Source: a virus
Taxonomy: Duplodnaviria; Heunggongvirae; Uroviricota; Caudoviricetes
IMG/VR virus record: IMGVR_UViG_2675903665_000006
Length of the DNA: 7,549 bases
Strand: one strand, 5' to 3'
Of this stretch, positions 288 to 7,549 are shown piece after piece; position 1 is the stretch's first letter; each line of letters begins with the position of its first letter. The notes beneath the pieces were generated by a model. It ran no database searches. It was not told the origin of the DNA and worked only from the letters and a program-made list of their open reading frames with translations. Position numbers and translations under genes: made by a program.

Positions 288-1202
288 ATGCACTCGATAA
301 AAAAAGTAACCATGCTCTTGGGGGGCCTCGCACTCACCTGCTCGATCGCATTTCAGGCAAGTGCAACTGAAAAATTCAAGGTCATTACAACATTTACCAT
401 CATCGCGGATATGGCCAAAAACGTGGCGGGAGATGCTGCAGAAGTCTCATCTATAACCAAGCCTGGTGCAGAAATTCATGAGTATCAGCCTACCCCTGGC
501 GATATTAAACGTGCGCAGGGGGCACAACTGATTCTCGCCAATGGTATGAATCTGGAATTGTGGTTCCAACGCTTTTACCAGCATCTCAATGGGGTTCCAG
601 AAGTAATTGTCTCTTCGGGTGTGACGCCTGTAGGGATCACCGAAGGACCCTATGAGGGCAAACCTAACCCCCATGCATGGATGTCGCCAGATAATGCTCT
701 GATTTACGTCGATAATATTCGTGATGCGTTGATAAAATACGATCCGGCAAATGCACAAACCTACCAACGCAATGCCGATACTTATAAAGCCAAGATTACC
801 CAAACCCTTGCCCCCCTGCGTAAGCAGATTACGGAACTCCCTGAGAATCAGCGGTGGATGGTCACCAGTGAAGGGGCTTTTTCTTATCTCGCACGCGATT
901 TGGGGCTAAAAGAGCTTTATCTGTGGCCGATTAATGCCGATCAACAAGGAACACCGCAGCAGGTACGTAAGGTTGTTGATATAGTTAAGAAAAATCATAT
1001 CCCGGCAGTCTTTAGCGAGAGTACGATTTCCGATAAACCAGCGCGTCAGGTTGCGCGTGAAACCGGCGCACACTACGGCGGTGTGCTCTATGTCGATTCC
1101 CTGAGCACAGAAAACGGCCCGGTACCGACATATATCGACCTTCTTAAGGTTACTACCAGTACGCTGGTACAGGGAATTAAAGCCGGGAAAAGGGAGAAAT
1201 AA
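288..1202 (+). CDS. sitA: Periplasmic Mn2+/Fe2+-binding protein of an ABC transporter (cluster A-I, TroA/PsaA/YfeA-like), 304 aa
   Basis: ORF with an N-terminal signal peptide (basic n-region KK, hydrophobic core [19 protein letters not shown] cleavage-like motif). Candidate metal ligands in [19 protein letters not shown] and YVDSLS. Weak SD (AGGT, 8-nt spacer). An alternative ATG at 312 lacks the basic n-region. Confidence 0.9.
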
Positions 1203-2029
1203 TGATGCAATCTGCAGGCATTGTCGTTAATGATGTTGCTGTCACCTGGCGTAACGGGCACACAGCACTGCGCGATGCATCCTTCACAGTACCAAGTGGA
1301 TCTATTGCCGCTCTGGTTGGGGTAAACGGTTCCGGAAAATCGACGTTGTTTAAAGCGATTATGGGATTTGTGCGTCTGACCAGCGGAAAGATATCTGTTC
1401 TGGGTATTCCCACGCGACAGGCGTTACAGAAAAACCTGGTTGCCTACGTCCCTCAGTCAGAAGAGGTTGACTGGTCATTTCCTGTACTGGTGGAAGATGT
1501 GGTGATGATGGGCCGCTATGGGCATATGGGTATGTTGCGTATCGCCAAAAAGAGGGATCGTCAAATTGTCACCGATGCGCTAGAACGTGTCGATATGGTG
1601 AATTTTCGCCATCGACAAATCGGCGAGCTTTCCGGTGGACAAAAGAAACGCGTCTTTCTGGCGAGAGCGATTGCACAGCAGGGTGATGTGATCCTGCTGG
1701 ATGAACCTTTTACTGGCGTTGATGTGAAAACCGAAGCCAAAATCATCAGCCTGTTGAGGGAGTTACGCGCGGAAGGCAAAACGATGCTTGTCTCAACGCA
1801 CAATCTCGGATCCGTCACGACATTTTGCGATTATACGGTCATGGTCAAAGGCACCGTCCTGGCAAGCGGGCCGACAGACACCACTTTTACAGCCGAGAAC
1901 CTGGAGCTGGCTTTTAGCGGCGTACTGCGCCATGTCACACTTAACGGCTCGGAAGAAAGCATTATTACTGACGATGAACGCCCTTTTGTGGCTCATCGAC
2001 CGTCAGCGGTGCAGAGGGAAGAAAGATGA
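1202..2029 (+). CDS. sitB: ABC transporter ATP-binding subunit for Mn2+/Fe2+ import, 275 aa
   Basis: Walker [13 protein letters not shown] signature LSGGQKKR, Walker B ILLDEP, H-loop STHNL. SD GGGAG upstream; the ATG overlaps the sitA stop (TAATG). Confidence 0.9.
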
Positions 2030-2883
2030 ACGTGCTACTGGAACCCTTCAGCTATGAATATATGCTCAATGCGATGTGGGTCTCGGCGATGGTCGGCGGT
2101 CTCTGCGCTTTCCTGTCATGCTATCTGATGCTAAAAGGCTGGTCGCTGATTGGCGATGCGTTGTCGCACTCTATTGTCCCGGGTGTTGCGGGGGCATATA
2201 TGCTGGGGCTTCCGTTTTCTCTGGGAGCCTTCTTTTCCGGCGGACTGGCTGCGGGCAGCATGCTGTTTCTTAACCAACGCACCCGCTTAAAAGAAGATGC
2301 CATCATCGGCCTGATCTTCTCGTCCTTTTTTGGCCTGGGGCTGTTTATGGTGTCATTGAACCCGACATCTGTGAACATTCAGACCATCGTCCTGGGCAAT
2401 ATTCTGGCAATCGATCCGGCGGATATCCTGCAACTCACTATCATTGGCATTCTCTCGATCATCGTGCTTTTTTTCAAATGGAAAGATCTTATGGTGACCT
2501 TTTTCGACGAGAATCACGCCCGTGCTATTGGATTGCATCCGGGCAGATTAAAACTCCTCTTCTTCACCCTGCTGTCGGTTTCGACCGTTGCGGCGCTGCA
2601 AACGGTTGGTGCCTTTCTGGTGATCTGTCTGGTGGTGACTCCCGGAGCAACAGCATGGTTGTTAACCGATCGTTTTCCCCGCCTGCTCATGATTGCTGTA
2701 ACTATTGGCAGTGTAACCAGTTTCCTCGGCGCGTGGGTCAGTTACTTTCTGGACGGCGCGACAGGTGGAATCATCGTGGTGGCGCAGACACTGCTGTTTC
2801 TTTTAGCATTTGTCTTTGCGCCCACCCATGGGCTTTTGGCAAATCGTCGGCGTGCGCATAAGGCGCTGGAGGATCGCTCATGA
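2026..2883 (+). CDS. sitC: ABC-3 family metal permease subunit, 285 aa
   Basis: Highly hydrophobic polytopic protein; its start overlaps the sitB stop (ATGA), indicating translational coupling; same length and architecture as the adjacent paralogue. Confidence 0.88.
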
Positions 2884-3737
2884 TGGCATTATTACTGGAG
2901 CCACTGCAGTTCACCTTTATAAGTCACGCACTGCTGATTTCACTGGTAGTTTCCATACCCTGTGCGCTGCTGTCGGTCTTTCTGGTCCTGAAAGGTTGGG
3001 CACTGATGGGTGACGCGATGAGTCATGCGGTTTTTCCTGGCATCGTGCTTGCCTGGATTCTGGGGTTACCTTTGGCTACAGGGGCATTCGTCGCCGGAGT
3101 ATTCTGCGCGGTGGCGACGGGATACCTGAAAGACAACAGCCGAATCAAGCAAGATACAGTGATGGGGATTGTTTTTTCTGGCATGTTTGCCGCAGGTCTG
3201 ATCTTGTATATTGCAGTCAAACCAGACGTACATCTTGACCATATTCTTTTCGGCGACATGCTCGGGATAACCATCGGCGATATAATCCAGACGGTGATTA
3301 TTGCTGGGCTGGTTACACTTGTTATTAGCGTAAAATGGCGAGATTTTTTGCTGTTCAGCTTTGATTATCAACAGGCGCAGGTAAGCGGTTTGCATACGAG
3401 ATGGCTGCATTATGGGCTGCTGTGCATGGTCTCTATGACCATTGTGGCGACGCTGAAAGCGGTAGGTATCATTCTCTCCATTTCTCTGCTCATTGCGCCT
3501 GGCGCCATTGCGGTACTCCTGACACAACGCTTTCATATTGCGCTCCTACTGGCGACTGGCATATCGGTAATAGTGTCAATGACTGGTGTCTGGTTGTCCT
3601 TTTTTATCGACAGCGCACCAGCTCCGACGATTGTCGTCTTATTCGCGGTTTTGTTCATCATGACGTTTGCCGTTACCAGCATCAACGCACGCAAAAAGGG
3701 AAACTCCCATACACAGGATCTGTTATCACCCAATTAG
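2880..3737 (+). CDS. sitD: ABC-3 family metal permease subunit, 285 aa
   Basis: Paralogue of the preceding permease (shared motifs such as LKGW.L.GDA.SH..PG); its start overlaps the sitC stop (ATGA); stop TAG at 3735-3737. Confidence 0.88.
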   Translation: MMALLLEPLQFTFISHALLISLVVSIPCALLSVFLVLKGWALMGDAMSHAVFPGIVLAWILGLPLATGAFVAGVFCAVATGYLKDNSRIKQDTVMGIVFSGMFAAGLILYIAVKPDVHLDHILFGDMLGITIGDIIQTVIIAGLVTLVISVKWRDFLLFSFDYQQAQVSGLHTRWLHYGLLCMVSMTIVATLKAVGIILSISLLIAPGAIAVLLTQRFHIALLLATGISVIVSMTGVWLSFFIDSAPAPTIVVLFAVLFIMTFAVTSINARKKGNSHTQDLLSPN

Positions 3738-3784
3738 CACAACATCCGAGAACAGCAACACCCGATACTTTTTCCTGGCTTCCA

Positions 3785-3809
3785 GCAACGGGGTTTCTTC
3801 CTCCGTTGC
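3785..3809. terminator. Weak hairpin in the convergent intergenic gap between sitD and the small membrane-protein gene
   Basis: GCAACGG (3785-3791) and CCGTTGC (3803-3809) form a 7-bp stem with an 11-nt loop. No adjacent U-run on either strand (the nearest T-run is at 3823-3829), so any terminator function is doubtful. Confidence 0.2.
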
Positions 3810-3828
3810 ATATACAGCTCACCTTTTT

Positions 3829-4128
3829 TCACCCACGATTAACCAACAGCCAGACCAGCAGACACGCCACCACCGGCACAGCAAAATCCATCAGGCTTGC
3901 CACATCCCAAACACGCGGATCAAAACCGCCCCACCACGGCATGTTAATCCGCTTGCCATGCCCGAACATTTCAATCCAGCGATATTCTGCCTGGGTGTGT
4001 TCACGCGCAATGAAGAACGTACAACCGGCTATCGCTCCGTAAGCCCAGTTCCCGGTAAAAAGACCAATCAGTAGCTGCGCAGCCACAGCACAAAGAGCAT
4101 GAAGGAAAGGTGTTATATCCATTTTCAT
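3829..4128 (-). CDS. Small inner-membrane protein of unknown function, ~97-102 aa, two predicted TM helices
   Basis: Clean ORF with two hydrophobic helices (FLHALCAVAAQLLIGLFTGNWAYGAIAGCTFFI and FAVPVVACLLVWLLV) flanking a charged, Trp-rich loop (REHTQAEYRWIEMFGHGKRINMPWWGGFDPRVWD). The track start at 4137 is TTG; in-frame ATGs lie at 4128 and 4122, the latter with AGGA 5 nt upstream. The overlapping +-strand ORFs look like low-complexity noise. Confidence 0.55.
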   Translation of the reverse strand: MKMDITPFLHALCAVAAQLLIGLFTGNWAYGAIAGCTFFIAREHTQAEYRWIEMFGHGKRINMPWWGGFDPRVWDVASLMDFAVPVVACLLVWLLVNRG

Positions 4129-4140
4129 CCTACCCAATAA

Positions 4141-4167
4141 AACGGGGCGCTCGGCCCCTTAATATTA
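4141..4167 (-). terminator. Rho-independent terminator-like hairpin just downstream of the 346-aa fibre-like gene, possibly bidirectional
   Basis: GGGGC (4144-4148) and GCCCC (4154-4158) form a GC-rich stem with a 5-nt loop; on the - strand it is followed by GTTTTATT, on the + strand preceded by an A-run and followed by TTAATATTATTT. The stop of the 346-aa gene is at 4165-4167. Confidence 0.45.
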
Positions 4168-4190
4168 TTTAGACGCAAGCGCCGCCTCAA
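4162..4190 (-). promoter_or_regulatory. Putative sigma70 promoter for the small membrane-protein gene, embedded in the 3' end of the fibre-like gene
   Basis: On the - strand: TTGAGG (plus 4190-4185), 17-bp spacer, TAATAT (plus 4167-4162). Hexamers found by eye; unverified. Confidence 0.2.
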
Positions 4191-5205
4191 TTGCAGATAA
4201 TCTTTGTCTTAATTCTGCGTTTTCTTCTTCCAGTGCTGTTATTCTGTCGTCTGACTCTCTGACTACCTGAACAAGCAAGCCAGTAACACCAGAATAATCT
4301 ACAGTGTAATACCGTTCACCTTCTTCTCCATCTAATCCACTCCCGCCGTCTGGATATTTCATCATAGACCCTACGGCTTCGGGGATGGCTTCCAGGGTTT
4401 CTTGTGCAATAACACCAGCGTAAGGCATACCGTTTTCTTTAAGCGTGTATGTATAGCCGTTCATTTTACGAATGCGGTCGGTTGCATTATCGATCACCTG
4501 AATATTGTCTTTCAGATCCCGGTCAGAGCCTTGATTAAATGCACTTGCATTGCACGCGCCGTTAACCGTTAATTCGTAGGTATTGCTGGTAGTTTTCTGC
4601 GCATAGAACATATAAGCGCCACCATCAACACCGACTTCATAAACAACAGGACGGCTGGAGTTGCCCCACAATTGAGCAGTAACACCAGCATAAGCGGTTC
4701 CCTGTGTGTTTAATGTCATGGTTGACCCATGATTGGCATATTTGATCTGTAATGTGTCGGTGTAATCAAATTTAATAAGCGCGTTACTTCCACGCTTACT
4801 GTATGACATAAGGCAGTTACCCATTTTGAGGTATCCGCTGTCACCGGGAAAAATCATCGTACCGCCATAAAGGTTGGTAAAGTCCCAGCAAATGTTTGTC
4901 CCGTTATCGTTCAGGTTAAGGCGCGCCATTGCGTTACCTGGACTGTCTATCCATTTTTTGAGGTATAGTTCGCAATACGCATCCTCAACACCTGCCGTCC
5001 TGTGAGTTGAGCGGAGTTTTCTCCCAAATATAGCTCCGCTAGTTGGCAATACCTGCTGATACCATGAAGCAGACCAGTCACCAACGGTTTCATCTTTGCT
5101 GTCTACATATGATTTTGTTGCGTAGCTTCCTTGATCGTTTTTTAATTTGCTAACGTCGGATTTTAGCGTTTTGATGTCTTCAGGAATTACTGTCGATGTA
5201 GCCAT
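4165..5205 (-). CDS. Tail-fibre/tail-spike-like receptor-binding protein with a C-terminal Peptidase S74 intramolecular chaperone domain, 346 aa
   Basis: C-terminus SDRDLKDNIQVIDNATDRIRKMNGYTYTLKENGMPYAGVIAQETLEAIPEAV...ITALEEENAELRQRL fits the S74 auto-cleaving chaperone pattern (Ser/Lys dyad, GxIAQE, PExV, terminal coiled coil). LWGNSSRPVVYEVG resembles a P2 H-type fibre motif. SD GAGGA is 7 nt upstream of the ATG. Confidence 0.85.
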   Translation of the reverse strand: MATSTVIPEDIKTLKSDVSKLKNDQGSYATKSYVDSKDETVGDWSASWYQQVLPTSGAIFGRKLRSTHRTAGVEDAYCELYLKKWIDSPGNAMARLNLNDNGTNICWDFTNLYGGTMIFPGDSGYLKMGNCLMSYSKRGSNALIKFDYTDTLQIKYANHGSTMTLNTQGTAYAGVTAQLWGNSSRPVVYEVGVDGGAYMFYAQKTTSNTYELTVNGACNASAFNQGSDRDLKDNIQVIDNATDRIRKMNGYTYTLKENGMPYAGVIAQETLEAIPEAVGSMMKYPDGGSGLDGEEGERYYTVDYSGVTGLLVQVVRESDDRITALEEENAELRQRLSAIEAALASK

Positions 5206-5214
5206 TTTTCTTCC

Positions 5215-5496
5215 TCACATCCAGCCACGAAGTTGATGCTCAACAGCAACCACGTATTCATCGAATATTGACGATTTTTTTGCATCATTAATGATGCGCA
5301 CGTTTACAAAATATCCGTCTTCCTTAACACATACCGGCTCGCCATCTTCGGTAAGTTCTCCGGTTTCTTTGTACACGTTACCTATCACGTCAATAAGAAT
5401 ATCATCCTGCATCGACTCATCATCATAATAGCCGATACTCTCCATAAAGGCCGAAAAGTCGGCCCTGTCGACAAATTTGAGTGTTAAATCTTTCAT
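5215..5496 (-). CDS. Hypothetical acidic protein, 93 aa, translationally coupled to the upstream tail-fibre gene
   Basis: Its ATG overlaps the fibre gene stop (TAATG); its own stop overlaps the SD of the next gene; rich in Asp/Glu. No family recognised. Confidence 0.55.
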   Translation of the reverse strand: MKDLTLKFVDRADFSAFMESIGYYDDESMQDDILIDVIGNVYKETGELTEDGEPVCVKEDGYFVNVRIINDAKKSSIFDEYVVAVEHQLRGWM

Positions 5497-7102
5497 TAGA
5501 TTAACTCCCCCACCTGAGCATCAGTCAATGCCTTGTGCCATATTCTGAAATTCCTGACATGACCAAATAAATGACGTAACCCGGCTGTAGTCTGGCCTCC
5601 AATACGGATAATTGCGGTGTTCTGAATATAGGACCATGTGGCTTTTGTTTCGCTGGATATACGCCCGTTACTTACTGAGCACGTAGACTGATCTGACTTT
5701 ACACGCATCCCCATAACCATTTTTTCAAGCAATGCGTTTTCGTTTACCCGTCTGTTAGCTCCTCCAATATCGCAATAAGGAAATCCGTCATAATCTGTTG
5801 AACGACCGAAGCCAAGAATAATAGCCGCTCCGGTTTGATGACCACCGGTATCAAAAACACGTGGCGCTGCATTTGGCGTTTTATACCAGTTCTTATGTAC
5901 CTCACAAAGAACCGTAAAAGGAAGATTATAAAGGTTATTCTTGATTGGGACTGTCACCATATCGCTTGCGCGAGTGCTTGCAGTTATATCAGTTACAATA
6001 AATGACGAAGCACTTGATCCACCTTCCACTTGTGGAGTTGCGATATCCAGATAGTCTCCAGATGCTGTGCCTGAACCTTTTACTGGAGCATATTGAACCA
6101 TCGCACCAATCATGCTCTCTGTATCTAGTGCATTAATTGTAGCCTGATAGAAAATCCAACCAGTAGCCTCATCTTTTACAGCCTTTGCAATAATACGATT
6201 TGCTGCACCACCAGTCTTATCAATTACAAGTGTTGATAAATTGAGGTAAGCATCTCCCAAAAAAGTGTAAGTAGAACCATCATGATGTTCAAATCTTAAA
6301 CGACACCTTATATTTTCAACATCACTTCTGACACGGCATGAAATGGTCACATATTTTTCATCACCTGTGACATCAAATCCTTTACTGCCAGAAACCGTTA
6401 CGATATTAATCGCACTTGTCTGATCAATAAGAGTATCTTTTACAGTAAATCTCCCATAAGTAAAATTAAAAGAATCCGTGGATATTTCTGTGAGTTCCAG
6501 ATTGCCTGACTTATTCCATTTAGATGGATTTGTTGAATTAAGCAGAAGATTAGTTCTTTGCCCCTCAATAAGCAGGCCATCACGTTCAAATCGCGGCTCG
6601 TCAATGGCAGCCTCTGTCAGTACACCAGATTTATTAATATAGGTTGCTTTCGATGCGCGTTTAAACTTAACAACCTTGTCACCAGGCATCGTTATTTCAT
6701 CATCACCAATAACAATCTTTTTATATGATGGCGAAAAGCCCGTAATCATATCCAGTGAATCGTTAAACGGTATCCACACATCTGGAAGCGGCTGCAAAAC
6801 TTGTTTATACGGCTCCGCAGCCTGGCTTGCATACTCTCTGGCTGCGTCTTCACTTGCTTTTGCAGCCGTCTGGCTTGCAGCGGATGCTTTCGCCGAGTTA
6901 GCCGCCGCAGTCTCGCTCGCCTTTGCGTTGGTTTCACTGGTTTTTGCAGCTTTTTGACTGTTGGCTGATGCAGTGGCAGAAGAAGCCGCCGCACTTGCAG
7001 AACCAGCTGCGGCACTCTCGCTTTGGGCTGCAGCATCCTGACTGTTTTTCGCCGCAGTTTCACTGGCTTTGGCATTCGACCAAAACGGGAAGCTAATCGC
7101 AT
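5496..7102 (-). CDS. Stf-like side tail-fibre protein, N-terminally truncated: Ala/Ser-rich repeat region plus a C-terminal LamG/ConA-like lectin-type domain; start unresolved, possibly a pseudogene
   Basis: The body frame is open from 7115 to the stop at 5496-5498 and encodes ...AKASETAAKNSQDAAAQSESAAAGSASAAASSATASANSQKAAKTSETNAKASETAAANSAKASAASQTAAKASEDAAREYA..., typical of lambdoid Stf fibres, ending FGHVRNFRIWHKALTDAQVGELI (LamG-like tail). The only SD+ATG (AGGAG, ATG at 7102-7100) is one base out of frame; the first canonical in-frame start is TTG at 6797. Confidence 0.7.
6800..7080 (-). repeat. Degenerate short tandem repeats encoding the Ala/Ser/Thr-rich (AAKxSETxA-type) fibre shaft
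   Basis: Reiterated imperfect units such as cgccgcagtctcgctcgcctttgc and cgccgcagtttcactggctttggc on the + strand; translation on the - strand gives repeating A-K-A/T-S-E-T-A-A motifs. Confidence 0.5.
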
Positions 7103-7161
7103 AACAGTAACTCCTTTATGAAGGCATAAAATTAATAAAATTTTTTTCGCTTAATATCATC

Positions 7162-7203
7162 CCCCTCGGTTATCGTTAACAAAAAGACAACAATTCCGAG
7201 GGG
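7162..7203. other. Inverted repeat (8-bp arms, 26-nt loop) in the intergenic region upstream of the tail-fibre gene
   Basis: CCCCTCGG (7162-7169) and CCGAGGGG (7196-7203) are exact reverse complements; the loop contains GTTAAC; an AT-rich tract (7110-7150) follows on the - strand before the fibre SD. Confidence 0.4.
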
Positions 7204-7211
7204 AAGGACCA

Positions 7212-7508
7212 TCAAATCAGGTCAGTTCGGGACTGACCAACCTGCCGAGTGAAAAGCAGTAACAGCGCGATCAACTCATCAGCGTTTTTTCTGACAAGAG
7301 GAGTATGATTCTCCAGGCTATCCAGTAAGTCATGCAGCTCATTATTGACCTGGTGGAGCACCTTAAAGAGTGCACCAGAATCCCGGCAGCTCTGATATGC
7401 AAGATTTGCCTGAACAGCACGATTCTGCATGATCCCGATTTGTGCGATTGCGTCTTTCTGCTGATCGCCTGTTGGCTGATAAGTGGTGTTAAAAGAAAAT
7501 GCGCTCAT
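7212..7508 (-). CDS. Hypothetical protein, 98 aa, phage-associated by context
   Basis: ORF with strong SD (AGGAGG, ~5 nt spacer) before the ATG at 7508-7506; stop TGA at 7214-7212; predicted largely helical; no family recognised. Confidence 0.55.
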   Translation of the reverse strand: MSAFSFNTTYQPTGDQQKDAIAQIGIMQNRAVQANLAYQSCRDSGALFKVLHQVNNELHDLLDSLENHTPLVRKNADELIALLLLFTRQVGQSRTDLI

Positions 7509-7549
7509 AATTCCTCCTGTATCTGATGTTTTCAGCCCCCATCATCTGT

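What the first reader, a model, noticed from the sequence alone, without database searches (positions are those of the whole stretch)
3829..4137. Small two-helix membrane protein in the cargo position between the fibre genes and the sit operon
It sits directly after the fibre-module terminator with its own SD, convergent with sitD. This is the kind of position where lambdoid prophages carry lysogenic-conversion or superinfection-exclusion genes. The protein has two TM helices around a conserved-looking charged, Trp-rich loop. Function unknown; a candidate membrane-level phage-exclusion or envelope-modifying factor, but this is speculation.
Basis: inference. Interest (0 to 1): 0.5.

Follow-up and report, generated by a model that had tools for sequence, protein, structure and literature searches.

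The report
Uncharacterised membrane protein of phage fibre modules
The ORF is a real, well-conserved 97-residue membrane protein of an unstudied family that sits directly after the receptor-binding (tail fibre or tailspike) genes in many different phages; its function is unknown and could be tested directly.

Summary
The ORF is real. The true CDS is window 4122..3829 (-), 97 aa, with SD GGTAGGA and a 5-bp GC hairpin plus T-run directly upstream. dN/dS against other copies is 0.11-0.30. AlphaFold2 (pLDDT 92) gives three helices, not two: a TM hairpin, a juxtamembrane helix, the Trp-rich loop, and a third TM.

It occurs in at least 1900 of 5426 complete E. coli genomes. It lies directly after tail fibre, tailspike or fibre-assembly genes in lambdoid, N15-like, P22-like and P2-like phages and in Comamonas, Salmonella, Citrobacter and Desulfovibrio prophages, often with overlapping stop/start. 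Its sequence does not track the fibre type.

Stand-alone chromosomal homologues exist in Aeromonas, Leclercia and sphingomonads.

Published LF82 RNA-seq shows the copy with this window's architecture is silent in lysogens while the upstream fibre gene is transcribed. The hairpin therefore behaves as a terminator there.

The window is not an intact prophage: the stf gene is 5'-truncated and joined to F-plasmid DNA.

Best guess (about 0.3): a fibre-module inner-membrane factor that blocks superinfection or re-adsorption. This is inferred, not shown.

The parts
3829..4122 (-). CDS of the 97-aa three-helix membrane protein (phrog_1443 / 'Ybl63' family); stop TGA at 3831-3829
   Evidence: Start fixed by the PHROG profile, the homologues and the SD. 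AF2 pLDDT 92. dN/dS 0.11-0.30.
4128..4134 (-). Shine-Dalgarno GGTAGGA, five nt upstream of ATG 4122
   Evidence: Read from the sequence. Identical in Tritos and HannyBb.
4144..4158 (-). Hairpin GGGGC-cgagc-GCCCC followed by GTTTTATT; intrinsic-terminator-like site between the fibre gene and the small gene
   Evidence: In LF82 prophage Tritos, which has the identical sequence, RNA-seq drops from log2 about 7.0 (fibre gene) to about 3.4 (small gene) across it.
3753..4131 (-). Extent of the mobile module (gene plus 76-nt 3' flank), bounded by homology breakpoints
   Evidence: sit-bearing phages match window 3700-4131; sit-less phages match 3753-4250. ColV-type plasmids carry sit only up to about 3744-3764; homology to phage 21/Perceval begins at the start codon.
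4165..5205 (-). 346-aa short tail fibre with a C-terminal Peptidase_S74 intramolecular chaperone domain; the gene directly upstream
   Evidence: PF13884 E 6.5e-14; phrog_4563 E 2e-214.
5215..5496 (-). 93-aa acidic protein (phrog_1361, unknown function) that accompanies stf genes in this phage group
   Evidence: The same gene precedes the small membrane gene directly in phage 21, Perceval and PhiR41_1.
5496..7079 (-). 5'-truncated side-tail-fibre (stf-like) gene; lacks about 264 N-terminal codons
   Evidence: tblastn of the HannyBb 790-aa protein aligns residues 265-790 only. Stops lie upstream. phrog_1419 positions 359-793.
2880..3737 (+). sitD, convergent neighbour; a separate module
   Evidence: ABC-3.
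7076..7549 (.). F-type plasmid leading-region DNA (ssb / hypothetical / DUF932) abutting the truncated stf gene
   Evidence: 100% identity to many E. coli plasmids over window 7076-7549. No record spans the junction.

Best explanation
SHOWN:
- Window 4122..3829 (-) encodes a 97-aa integral membrane protein of an uncharacterised family. The family's only labels are phrog_1443 and the UniProt name 'Ybl63'.
- The predicted structure is a TM hairpin (4-23, 26-39), a juxtamembrane helix carrying R40-E41-H42..Q44-A45-E46-Y47-R48-W49, a Trp/Gly-rich loop (MPWWGGFD) and a third TM (74-96).
- In phages the gene is the last gene of the receptor-binding-protein (RBP) module. It lies immediately after side tail fibres, S74 fibres, P22-type tailspikes, pectate-lyase spikes or fibre-assembly genes, often with a 4-nt stop/start overlap. 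This holds in sipho-, myo- and podoviruses of several bacterial phyla.
- Its sequence stays nearly constant while the RBP changes.

INFERRED (expression): In this window's architecture the gene has no promoter of its own and sits behind a terminator. In an intact phage it would be made only when Q-antiterminated late transcription reads through, that is, together with the fibres during lytic growth.

INFERRED (mechanism, about 0.3): The protein inserts in the cytoplasmic membrane and uses its conserved polar cluster (H8, R40/E41, E46, D79) and its loop to engage a conserved host envelope component, not a phage-specific one. That would hinder genome entry by superinfecting or re-adsorbing phage. 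It would work like the Llp or Cor exclusion genes linked to RBP genes, but at the inner membrane and independent of receptor type.

In this particular window the module is a stranded remnant with no late promoter.
For: - Gene reality and selection.
- Structure.
- Abundance: at least 1900 of 5426 complete E. coli genomes, 3927 places, median 2 and up to 7 per genome; 434 IMG/VR hits; 73 phage records.
- RBP adjacency:
  - phage 21 stf-92aa-gene
  - HannyBb, Tritos and the N15-like plasmid-prophage, S74 fibre-gene
  - PhiR41_1 and the trp-site prophage
  - JEP4, tailspike overlapping by 4 nt
  - Gally, tailspike-gene-int
  - Halomonas phiHAP-1, tfa overlapping the gene, then sheath
  - Comamonas, J-72aa-gene
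  - Pantoea-type, DUF4376 tail protein-gene
  - Salmonella, gene between two tailspikes
  - Citrobacter, J-spike-gene
  - Chelativorans, Leclercia and Desulfovibrio, tail protein or spike directly upstream
  - Aeromonas jumbo phage, next to a tail-spike-like gene
- Of 67 genome loci, 29 have a same-strand upstream ORF of at least 90 aa ending within 30 nt or overlapping.
- Among 80 E. coli proviruses at least four different upstream fibre types sit next to 94-99% identical copies.
- Expression coupling in LF82 RNA-seq (PMC9928086): the Perceval copy tracks stf and the 92-aa gene, not J. The Tritos copy is cut off by the hairpin.
- Concept that Sie proteins made in the lytic cycle protect progeny: preprint 10.1101/2024.03.05.583538 (abstract seen).
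- Llp next to the T5 RBP gene and Cor next to tail genes are established knowledge, recalled and not tested here.
Against: - No exclusion phenotype is known. There is no homology to any Sie, defence or holin family and no informative fold match.
- Receptor-blocking Sie genes are expected to co-vary with their RBP; this gene does not.
- Stand-alone chromosomal homologues argue for a general cellular role: Aeromonas between Pirin and RIO1 in five species, Leclercia, and sphingomonads after ligA.
- The positive-inside count suggests the conserved loop may be cytoplasmic. That would not suit a periplasm-facing block.
- Exclusion late in a lytic cycle has limited obvious value.
- The Gally copy appears to have its own promoter region and is induced 25-30-fold in DMEM and macrophages. 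That fits a host-benefit moron as well.
- A degenerate remnant follows the tailspike of virulent T1-like phages (HC6 group). The gene is therefore dispensable for RBP function there.
Confidence: 0.3

Rival explanations
1. A host-physiology small membrane protein, for example one that binds a metal, lipid or cofactor or tunes an envelope process. Phages carry it as a passenger or moron that benefits the lysogen under stress. Its place after the fibre genes would only reflect the end of the late operon being a permissive insertion site.
For: - Chromosomal, non-prophage homologues are conserved in place across species.
- Invariant H/R/E/Q/E/D residues near one membrane face look like a ligand or catalytic site.
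- The Gally copy sits behind a strong terminator and an AT-rich promoter-like region. It rises from log2 about 4 (LB) to 6-7 (DMEM) and 8-8.7 (macrophages), always above the tailspike gene.
- Intact copies persist in decayed prophages (L165) and in this plasmid-borne remnant.
Against: - It does not explain 4-nt overlaps with tailspike or tfa genes, or the position between two tailspike genes or between tfa and sheath.
- The Tritos-type copy is silent in every lysogen condition tested.
- No copy passed the moron threshold in LB.
Confidence: 0.25
2. A lysis-timing protein (holin, antiholin or holin modulator) made late, which acts in the cytoplasmic membrane.
For: - It is a small three-helix membrane protein.
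- In Comamonas, Pantoea, Acidovorax and Silvania prophages it lies directly upstream of holin-like membrane genes, a Phage_lysozyme endolysin and Rz-like spanins. In L003 it overlaps the next gene by 4 nt.
Against: - Lambdoid and P22-like carriers have complete lysis cassettes elsewhere.
- The C-terminal tail is short and not highly charged.
- About 60% identity across genera is unlike holins.
- Only 1 of 78 members gave a sub-threshold holin Pfam hit.
- Chromosomal copies exist, and RBP adjacency is the more general synteny.
Confidence: 0.1
3. A membrane-anchored helper for fibre or tailspike maturation or attachment.
For: Its position and translational coupling are those of fibre-assembly chaperone genes. 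It is co-expressed with stf and the 92-aa gene in Perceval.
Against: - It follows fibres that carry their own S74 chaperone and also follows bona fide tfa genes.
- It does not co-vary with RBP type.
- It has decayed behind an apparently intact tailspike in virulent HC6-type phages.
- Chromosomal homologues exist.
- No membrane protein is known in fibre assembly (established knowledge).
Confidence: 0.08
4. Mainly a conserved 'linker' that gives homologous flanks for swapping RBP cassettes, with little protein function.
For: There is 94-99% nucleotide identity next to unrelated fibre genes, and the homology breakpoints lie exactly at the start codon and 76 nt after the stop.
Against: There is clear purifying selection on the protein (dN/dS 0.11-0.30). 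Residues are conserved after synonymous saturation across genera. This can only be an added effect.
Confidence: 0.05

Closest known systems
phrog_1443 (PHROGs v4, 'unknown function'); UniProt name 'Ybl63' for a 98-aa E. coli variant
   Same: Full-length match, E 1.2e-58, residues 6-101 to profile 1-96/97. The Ybl63 variant aligns end to end.
   Different: Nothing differs; this is the family. It carries no function, and no paper mentions it.
RBP-linked superinfection-exclusion proteins Llp (T5) and Cor (T1/phi80/N15), recalled from the literature
   Same: A small envelope protein encoded next to the receptor-binding gene of the same phage.
   Different: - Llp and Cor are outer-membrane lipoproteins that block one receptor (FhuA) and are matched to their RBP.
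- This protein has no lipobox (H8-A9-L10-C11, and C11 is not conserved).
- It has three membrane helices.
- It is invariant across RBP types.
- There is no sequence similarity.
Inner-membrane exclusion proteins (T4 Imm, P22 SieA, HK97 gp15)
   Same: Small phage-encoded cytoplasmic-membrane proteins that act on genome entry. This is the kind of action proposed here.
   Different: - No Pfam, PHROG or PADLOC similarity.
- Those proteins are made early or from the prophage. The copy with this architecture is silent in lysogens.
- They are not RBP-linked.
Class I holins (lambda S type)
   Same: About 100 aa, three predicted membrane helices, a late gene, and next to lysis genes in some relatives.
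   Different: - No charged C-terminal tail.
- Strong sequence conservation.
- Located outside the lysis cassette in lambdoid, P22-like and P2-like carriers.
- No holin family hit.
Accessory-gene slots after RBP genes (P22 gtr/oac between tailspike and int; P2 Z/fun between G and FI), recalled and not tested
   Same: In JEP4 and Gally the gene occupies the tailspike-int slot. In phiHAP-1 it occupies the tfa-sheath slot.
   Different: - Those occupants are independent transcription units expressed in lysogens.
- This gene often overlaps the RBP or tfa stop codon.
- In the Tritos/window form it lacks a promoter.

Membership tests
phrog_1443 / 'Ybl63' family | Full-length profile match | tested here: met
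   E 1.2e-58, 96/97 profile positions. 575 homologues at E 1e-3 or better. 440 clusters at 50% identity.
phrog_1443 / 'Ybl63' family | Core residues H8, R40, E41, Q44, A45, E46, W72, D79, P83 | tested here: met
   All are present in the window protein. E41 and W72 are invariant, and H8, R40, Q44, A45, E46 and P83 are nearly invariant (90% or more), across 78 divergent members. D79 is invariant in the two smaller alignments (40 and 11 sequences) but below 90% in the 78-member one.
Holins | Similarity to a holin family | tested here: not met
   No Pfam or PHROG holin hit for the window protein. 1 of 78 relatives hit Phage_holin_8 at E 0.0036, below threshold.
Holins | Gene inside the lysis cassette, next to the endolysin | tested here: not met
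   In the window it lies after a fibre gene and before sitD. This is also so in lambdoid, P22-like and P2-like phages. It is met only in Comamonas/Pantoea-type prophages.
Holins | Highly charged cytoplasmic C-terminal tail | tested here: not met
   The tail is NRG. The mean tail is 1.6-2.6 residues with 0.35-0.37 K+R.
Inner-membrane superinfection-exclusion proteins (Imm, SieA/SieB, HK97 gp15) | Sequence or profile similarity | tested here: not met
   No hit in Pfam, NCBIfam, PHROGs beyond phrog_1443, or PADLOC.
Inner-membrane superinfection-exclusion proteins (Imm, SieA/SieB, HK97 gp15) | Expressed from the prophage or early in infection | tested here: not met
   From published LF82 RNA-seq: the Tritos-type copy is at background in five conditions, and none passed the moron cut-off in LB. 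The Gally copy is condition-induced.
Inner-membrane superinfection-exclusion proteins (Imm, SieA/SieB, HK97 gp15) | Blocks infection after adsorption | not testable with these tools
   Needs plating and DNA-entry assays.
RBP-linked receptor blockers (Llp, Cor) | Lipoprotein signal peptide with lipobox | tested here: not met
   The residues before C11 are H-A-L. C11 varies in homologues and there is no basic n-region.
RBP-linked receptor blockers (Llp, Cor) | Encoded next to the RBP gene | tested here: met
RBP-linked receptor blockers (Llp, Cor) | Co-variation with the cognate RBP or receptor | tested here: not met
   Copies 94-99% identical lie next to at least four fibre types.
Tail fibre assembly chaperones (Tfa, DUF4376) | Similarity to a Tfa family; soluble protein | tested here: not met
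   No hit. Three membrane helices. It follows true tfa-like genes in phiHAP-1 and Pantoea-type loci.
Morons (autonomous promoter-gene-terminator units expressed in lysogens) | Own promoter and expression in the lysogen | tested here: not met
   No promoter-like site in 3650-4400, and only 6 nt lie between the hairpin tail and the SD. The identical Tritos unit is silent. The Gally variant does look moron-like.

The most novel reading that the evidence does not exclude
The family is a previously unrecognised, near-universal accessory component of phage receptor-binding modules. It would be an inner-membrane protein, co-translated with fibres or tailspikes in sipho-, myo- and podoviruses from Gamma-, Beta- and Alphaproteobacteria and Desulfovibrio. 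It would act on a conserved host envelope process by a mechanism unrelated to any known exclusion, lysis or assembly protein, and it was recruited from (or donated to) a cellular gene family.
Probability: 0.25. Interest if true: 0.7.

Novelty: new variant of a known kind. Interest (0 to 1): 0.5.

Why it matters
- The gene is one of the commonest uncharacterised prophage genes in E. coli. It is in at least 35% of complete genomes, often in several copies.
- It marks the downstream edge of the exchangeable RBP cassette in many phage types.
- If it controls phage entry or progeny survival, it would be a new exclusion principle. It would matter for phage-therapy host range and for engineered fibre swaps, which often carry the neighbouring gene along.
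- If instead it serves the host, as the macrophage and DMEM induction of the Gally copy could suggest, it would be a widespread lysogenic-conversion factor in pathogenic E. coli.
- Either way, the conserved H/R-E/E/D cluster gives clear mutational targets.

Tried and rejected
- Pfam, NCBIfam and PADLOC scans of the protein, and Pfam on 78 relatives, gave nothing. The only recurrent hit was a sub-threshold resemblance to the PhoR N-terminal TM hairpin (6 of 78, best E 0.003), taken as generic.
- A PDB sequence profile search gave 0 hits.
- Rfam on the window gave no RNA family.
- I tested whether the gene lies in a Pin-invertible segment, since Tritos and HannyBb have a pin gene next door. No convincing flanking inverted repeats were found.
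- Literature searches for the gene, for 'Ybl63', for sit plus prophage plus fibre, and for Sie next to fibres found no functional study. The svsR sRNA paper and the LF82 CRISPRi preprint do not concern this gene.
- A link to the adjacent sit operon (metal binding) was rejected. sit is a separate module with its own breakpoints, and most carriers lack it.
- The conserved 135-aa antisense ORF (3667-4074 +) is a mirror of the real gene. It clusters only as the opposite strand of the target in 57 loci.

Full report
**1. What is in the sequence**

The window holds sitABCD on the plus strand (288-3737). Converging on it from the minus strand are four ORFs:
- the ORF in question (3829-4137)
- a 346-aa fibre gene (4165-5205)
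- a 93-aa ORF (5215-5496)
- a 433-aa 'tail protein' ORF (5496-6797)

Pfam and PHROGs identify the neighbours. SitD is ABC-3. The 346-aa protein is a tail fibre with a C-terminal Peptidase_S74 chaperone domain (phrog_4563). The 433-aa ORF is the C-terminal part of an stf-like tail protein (phrog_1419, positions 359-793).

The small ORF matches only phrog_1443, 'unknown function' (E 1.2e-58). The match runs from residue 6. All homologues start MD(I/L)(T/S)P. The sequence GGTAGGA lies five nt before ATG 4122. The true CDS is therefore 4122..3829, 97 aa.

Between the fibre stop and the SD sits a GC hairpin with a T-run (4158-4144). No sigma-70-like promoter was found in 3650-4400.

**2. It is a real, constrained protein**

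Forty relatives at about 60% identity share 23 invariant positions. Most lie in AREHTQAEYRWI..FG.GKR.NMPWWGGFD.R.W. Across 78 more distant relatives (30-57% identity), E41 and W72 are invariant, and H8, R40, Q44, A45, E46 and P83 are kept in 90% or more. D79 is invariant in the two smaller alignments.

dN/dS against other E. coli phage copies is 0.11-0.30. Synonymous sites are saturated between genera.

AlphaFold2 on the alignment gives a confident model (pLDDT 92) with helices 4-23, 26-53 and 74-96.

Which side of the membrane that segment faces is unresolved:
- It carries about 5.3 Lys+Arg, against 0.4 or fewer in the other extramembrane parts. That favours the cytoplasm.
- The depositors of phage 21 recorded a TMHMM N-in/C-in prediction, which puts the loop in the periplasm.

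**3. No known family**

Every source calls the protein 'hypothetical'. The one exception is the UniProt name 'Ybl63' for a 98-aa variant, and no paper uses that name.

The exhaustive profile search found 440 clusters at 50% identity. All of the best 150 listed are short proteins of 63-146 aa.

**4. Distribution and synteny**

The gene, at roughly 85% nucleotide identity or more, is in 1900 of 5426 complete E. coli genomes. That is 3927 places, with a median of 2 and up to 7 per genome. It also appears in 434 IMG/VR contigs and 73 phage records.

Its position is strikingly constant. It directly follows the receptor-binding genes.

| Phage or prophage | Arrangement |
|---|---|
| Phage 21, Perceval, PhiR41_1, trp-site prophage | J-(lom)-stf-92aa-gene |
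| Window, HannyBb, Tritos, an N15-like plasmid-prophage | stf-93aa-S74 fibre-gene |
| P22-like JEP4 | gene overlaps the tailspike stop by 4 nt |
| P22-like Gally | tailspike-gene-int |
| P2-like Halomonas phiHAP-1 | gene overlaps the fibre-assembly gene and precedes the sheath gene |
| Comamonas prophage (L003) | follows J and a 72-aa gene; precedes holin-like genes, a putative endolysin and spanins |
| Pantoea-type prophages | follows a DUF4376 tail protein; a Phage_lysozyme endolysin lies downstream |
| Salmonella myovirus-like prophage | between two pectate-lyase tailspikes |
| Citrobacter prophage | after J and a depolymerase spike |
| Chelativorans, Leclercia, Desulfovibrio | tail protein or spike directly upstream |

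Homology breakpoints define a 380-bp module, 3753-4131. Among 80 E. coli proviruses, copies 94-99% identical sit next to at least four different fibre genes. The gene is therefore linked to the RBP cassette but not matched to a receptor specificity.

**5. It is not only a phage gene**

Stand-alone chromosomal homologues exist in three groups:
- In five Aeromonas species it lies between Pirin and RIO1, with no phage genes nearby.
- Five Leclercia genomes share another chromosomal context.
- In sphingomonads it follows ligA.

In virulent T1-like phages of the HC6 group, a degenerate remnant follows the tailspike gene. The N-terminal hairpin is lost, the REH motif is destroyed and there is a premature stop. 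Intact, motif-bearing copies do occur in Aeromonas jumbo and other phages.

**6. Expression evidence from the literature**

E. coli LF82 carries three copies, and strand-resolved gene tables are published (PMC9928086). Values are log2(fpkm+5).

| Copy | Architecture | LB | DMEM | Macrophages |
|---|---|---|---|---|
| Tritos TRITO_22 | fibre-hairpin-SD-start identical to the window | 2.8-3.8 | 3.0-3.6 | 3.2-3.8 |
| Perceval PERCE_24 | no hairpin, 12-nt gap after the 92-aa gene | 3.2-3.8 | 4.2-4.4 | 5.6-6.4 |
| Gally GALLYPH_17 | 9-bp-stem terminator and a 190-nt AT-rich region with a promoter-like site | 3.75-4.5 | 6.0-7.0 | 7.9-8.7 |

- Tritos: the genes just upstream reach 5-8.3 in macrophages while TRITO_22 stays at background. 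The hairpin thus behaves as a terminator, and the gene has no active promoter of its own in any of those conditions.
- Perceval: the copy rises together with stf and the 92-aa gene, but not with J.
- Gally: the copy is always 2-2.6-fold above the tailspike gene.
- None of the three met the authors' moron criterion in LB.

In the window's arrangement an intact phage would therefore make the protein only by antiterminated late transcription. That last step is inferred from lambda biology.

**7. The window itself is a remnant**

The stf-like gene lacks its first 264 or so codons. From 7076 onward the DNA is 100% identical to the leading region of F-type plasmids. No complete E. coli genome or PLSDB plasmid spans that junction. 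ColV plasmids carry sit only to about 3744-3764, without the small gene. With no late promoter in sight, expression of this particular copy is doubtful, although its ORF is intact.

**8. Interpretation**

Five things are shown:
- This is a new, abundant, constrained membrane-protein family.
- It is tightly linked to RBP cassettes across phage morphotypes.
- It is independent of RBP type.
- Its expression is coupled to the fibre genes.
- It has cellular homologues.

What it does is not shown. I rank the explanations as follows:
- (a) An inner-membrane factor made with the fibres that acts on a conserved host envelope component and hinders entry of superinfecting or re-adsorbing phage: about 0.3.
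- (b) A host-physiology protein carried as a conditionally expressed moron: about 0.25.
- (c) A lysis modulator: about 0.1.
- (d) A fibre-maturation helper: about 0.08.
- (e) Merely a recombination linker: about 0.05. This is contradicted by dN/dS as the sole explanation.
- The rest goes to something not yet imagined.

The idea of a lysogen-expressed conversion gene is weakened for this architecture.

**9. Novelty and score**

The family is catalogued but uncharacterised. Its general kind, a small phage accessory membrane protein next to RBP genes, is known. Its breadth, its translational coupling, its independence from RBP type and its cellular homologues are unusual. Interest is 0.5: not a surprise in kind, but an abundant, cleanly testable unknown.

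Noticed in passing
window 7076-7549 and 5496-7079: The right end of the window is 100% identical to F-type plasmid leading-region DNA (ssb / hypothetical / DUF932). It abuts an stf-like gene that has lost about 264 N-terminal codons. No complete E. coli genome or PLSDB plasmid spans this junction, so the window is a rare phage-plasmid chimera or an assembly join.
   Followed up: partly
LF82 prophages Tritos (L172) and Perceval (L171); equivalent to window 4165-7079: In published LF82 RNA-seq the side-fibre genes (stf, the 92/93-aa gene, the S74 fibre) are induced 30-200-fold in macrophages. J, lom and the tail assembly genes stay at or near background (J rises only 3-4-fold). This implies a separate promoter in front of stf that is active in lysogens.
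   Followed up: partly
window 5215-5496 (-): This 93-aa acidic protein (phrog_1361, unknown function) always sits between the stf gene and either the S74 fibre or the small membrane gene in this phage group. It may be a fibre chaperone. It has no Pfam family.
   Followed up: no
L162 2965-3162 (Escherichia phage HC6; also 6947, HC8A, ST1UNAM, PBM-2, PBM-3): Virulent T1-like and other phages carry an unannotated, degenerate remnant of the small gene 3 nt after an 859-aa tailspike gene. This looks like a footprint of RBP-cassette transfer from temperate phages.
   Followed up: partly
L067, L069 and other sphingomonad loci: In sphingomonads the homologue directly follows, or overlaps the end of, the NAD-dependent DNA ligase gene ligA. 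This is a conserved chromosomal pairing with no obvious rationale.
   Followed up: no
L165 7001-7297: In an E. coli chromosome the Ybl63-type copy survives intact between int/xis and the trp operon. The whole tail region present in sister genomes (L163, L164) has been lost.
   Followed up: no
window 3667-4074 (+): A 135-aa ORF antisense to the small gene recurs in 57 related loci. It does so only as the mirror image of the real gene and is not a gene.
   Followed up: yes
L159 2789-2855 (phage Gally): A strong terminator (9-bp stem plus T-run) after the tailspike gene is followed by an AT-rich 190-nt spacer with a TTAAGA-18-TAGAAT promoter-like site and an AAGGAG SD before the homologue. This is a moron-like layout that contrasts with the window.
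   Followed up: partly
L003 8300-9521 (Comamonas testosteroni prophage): Two unannotated multi-TM proteins (125 and 99 aa) and a 183-aa protein (phrog_3108, unknown function) lie between the homologue and an Rz-like spanin. They are probably a holin pair and an unclassified endolysin.
   Followed up: no
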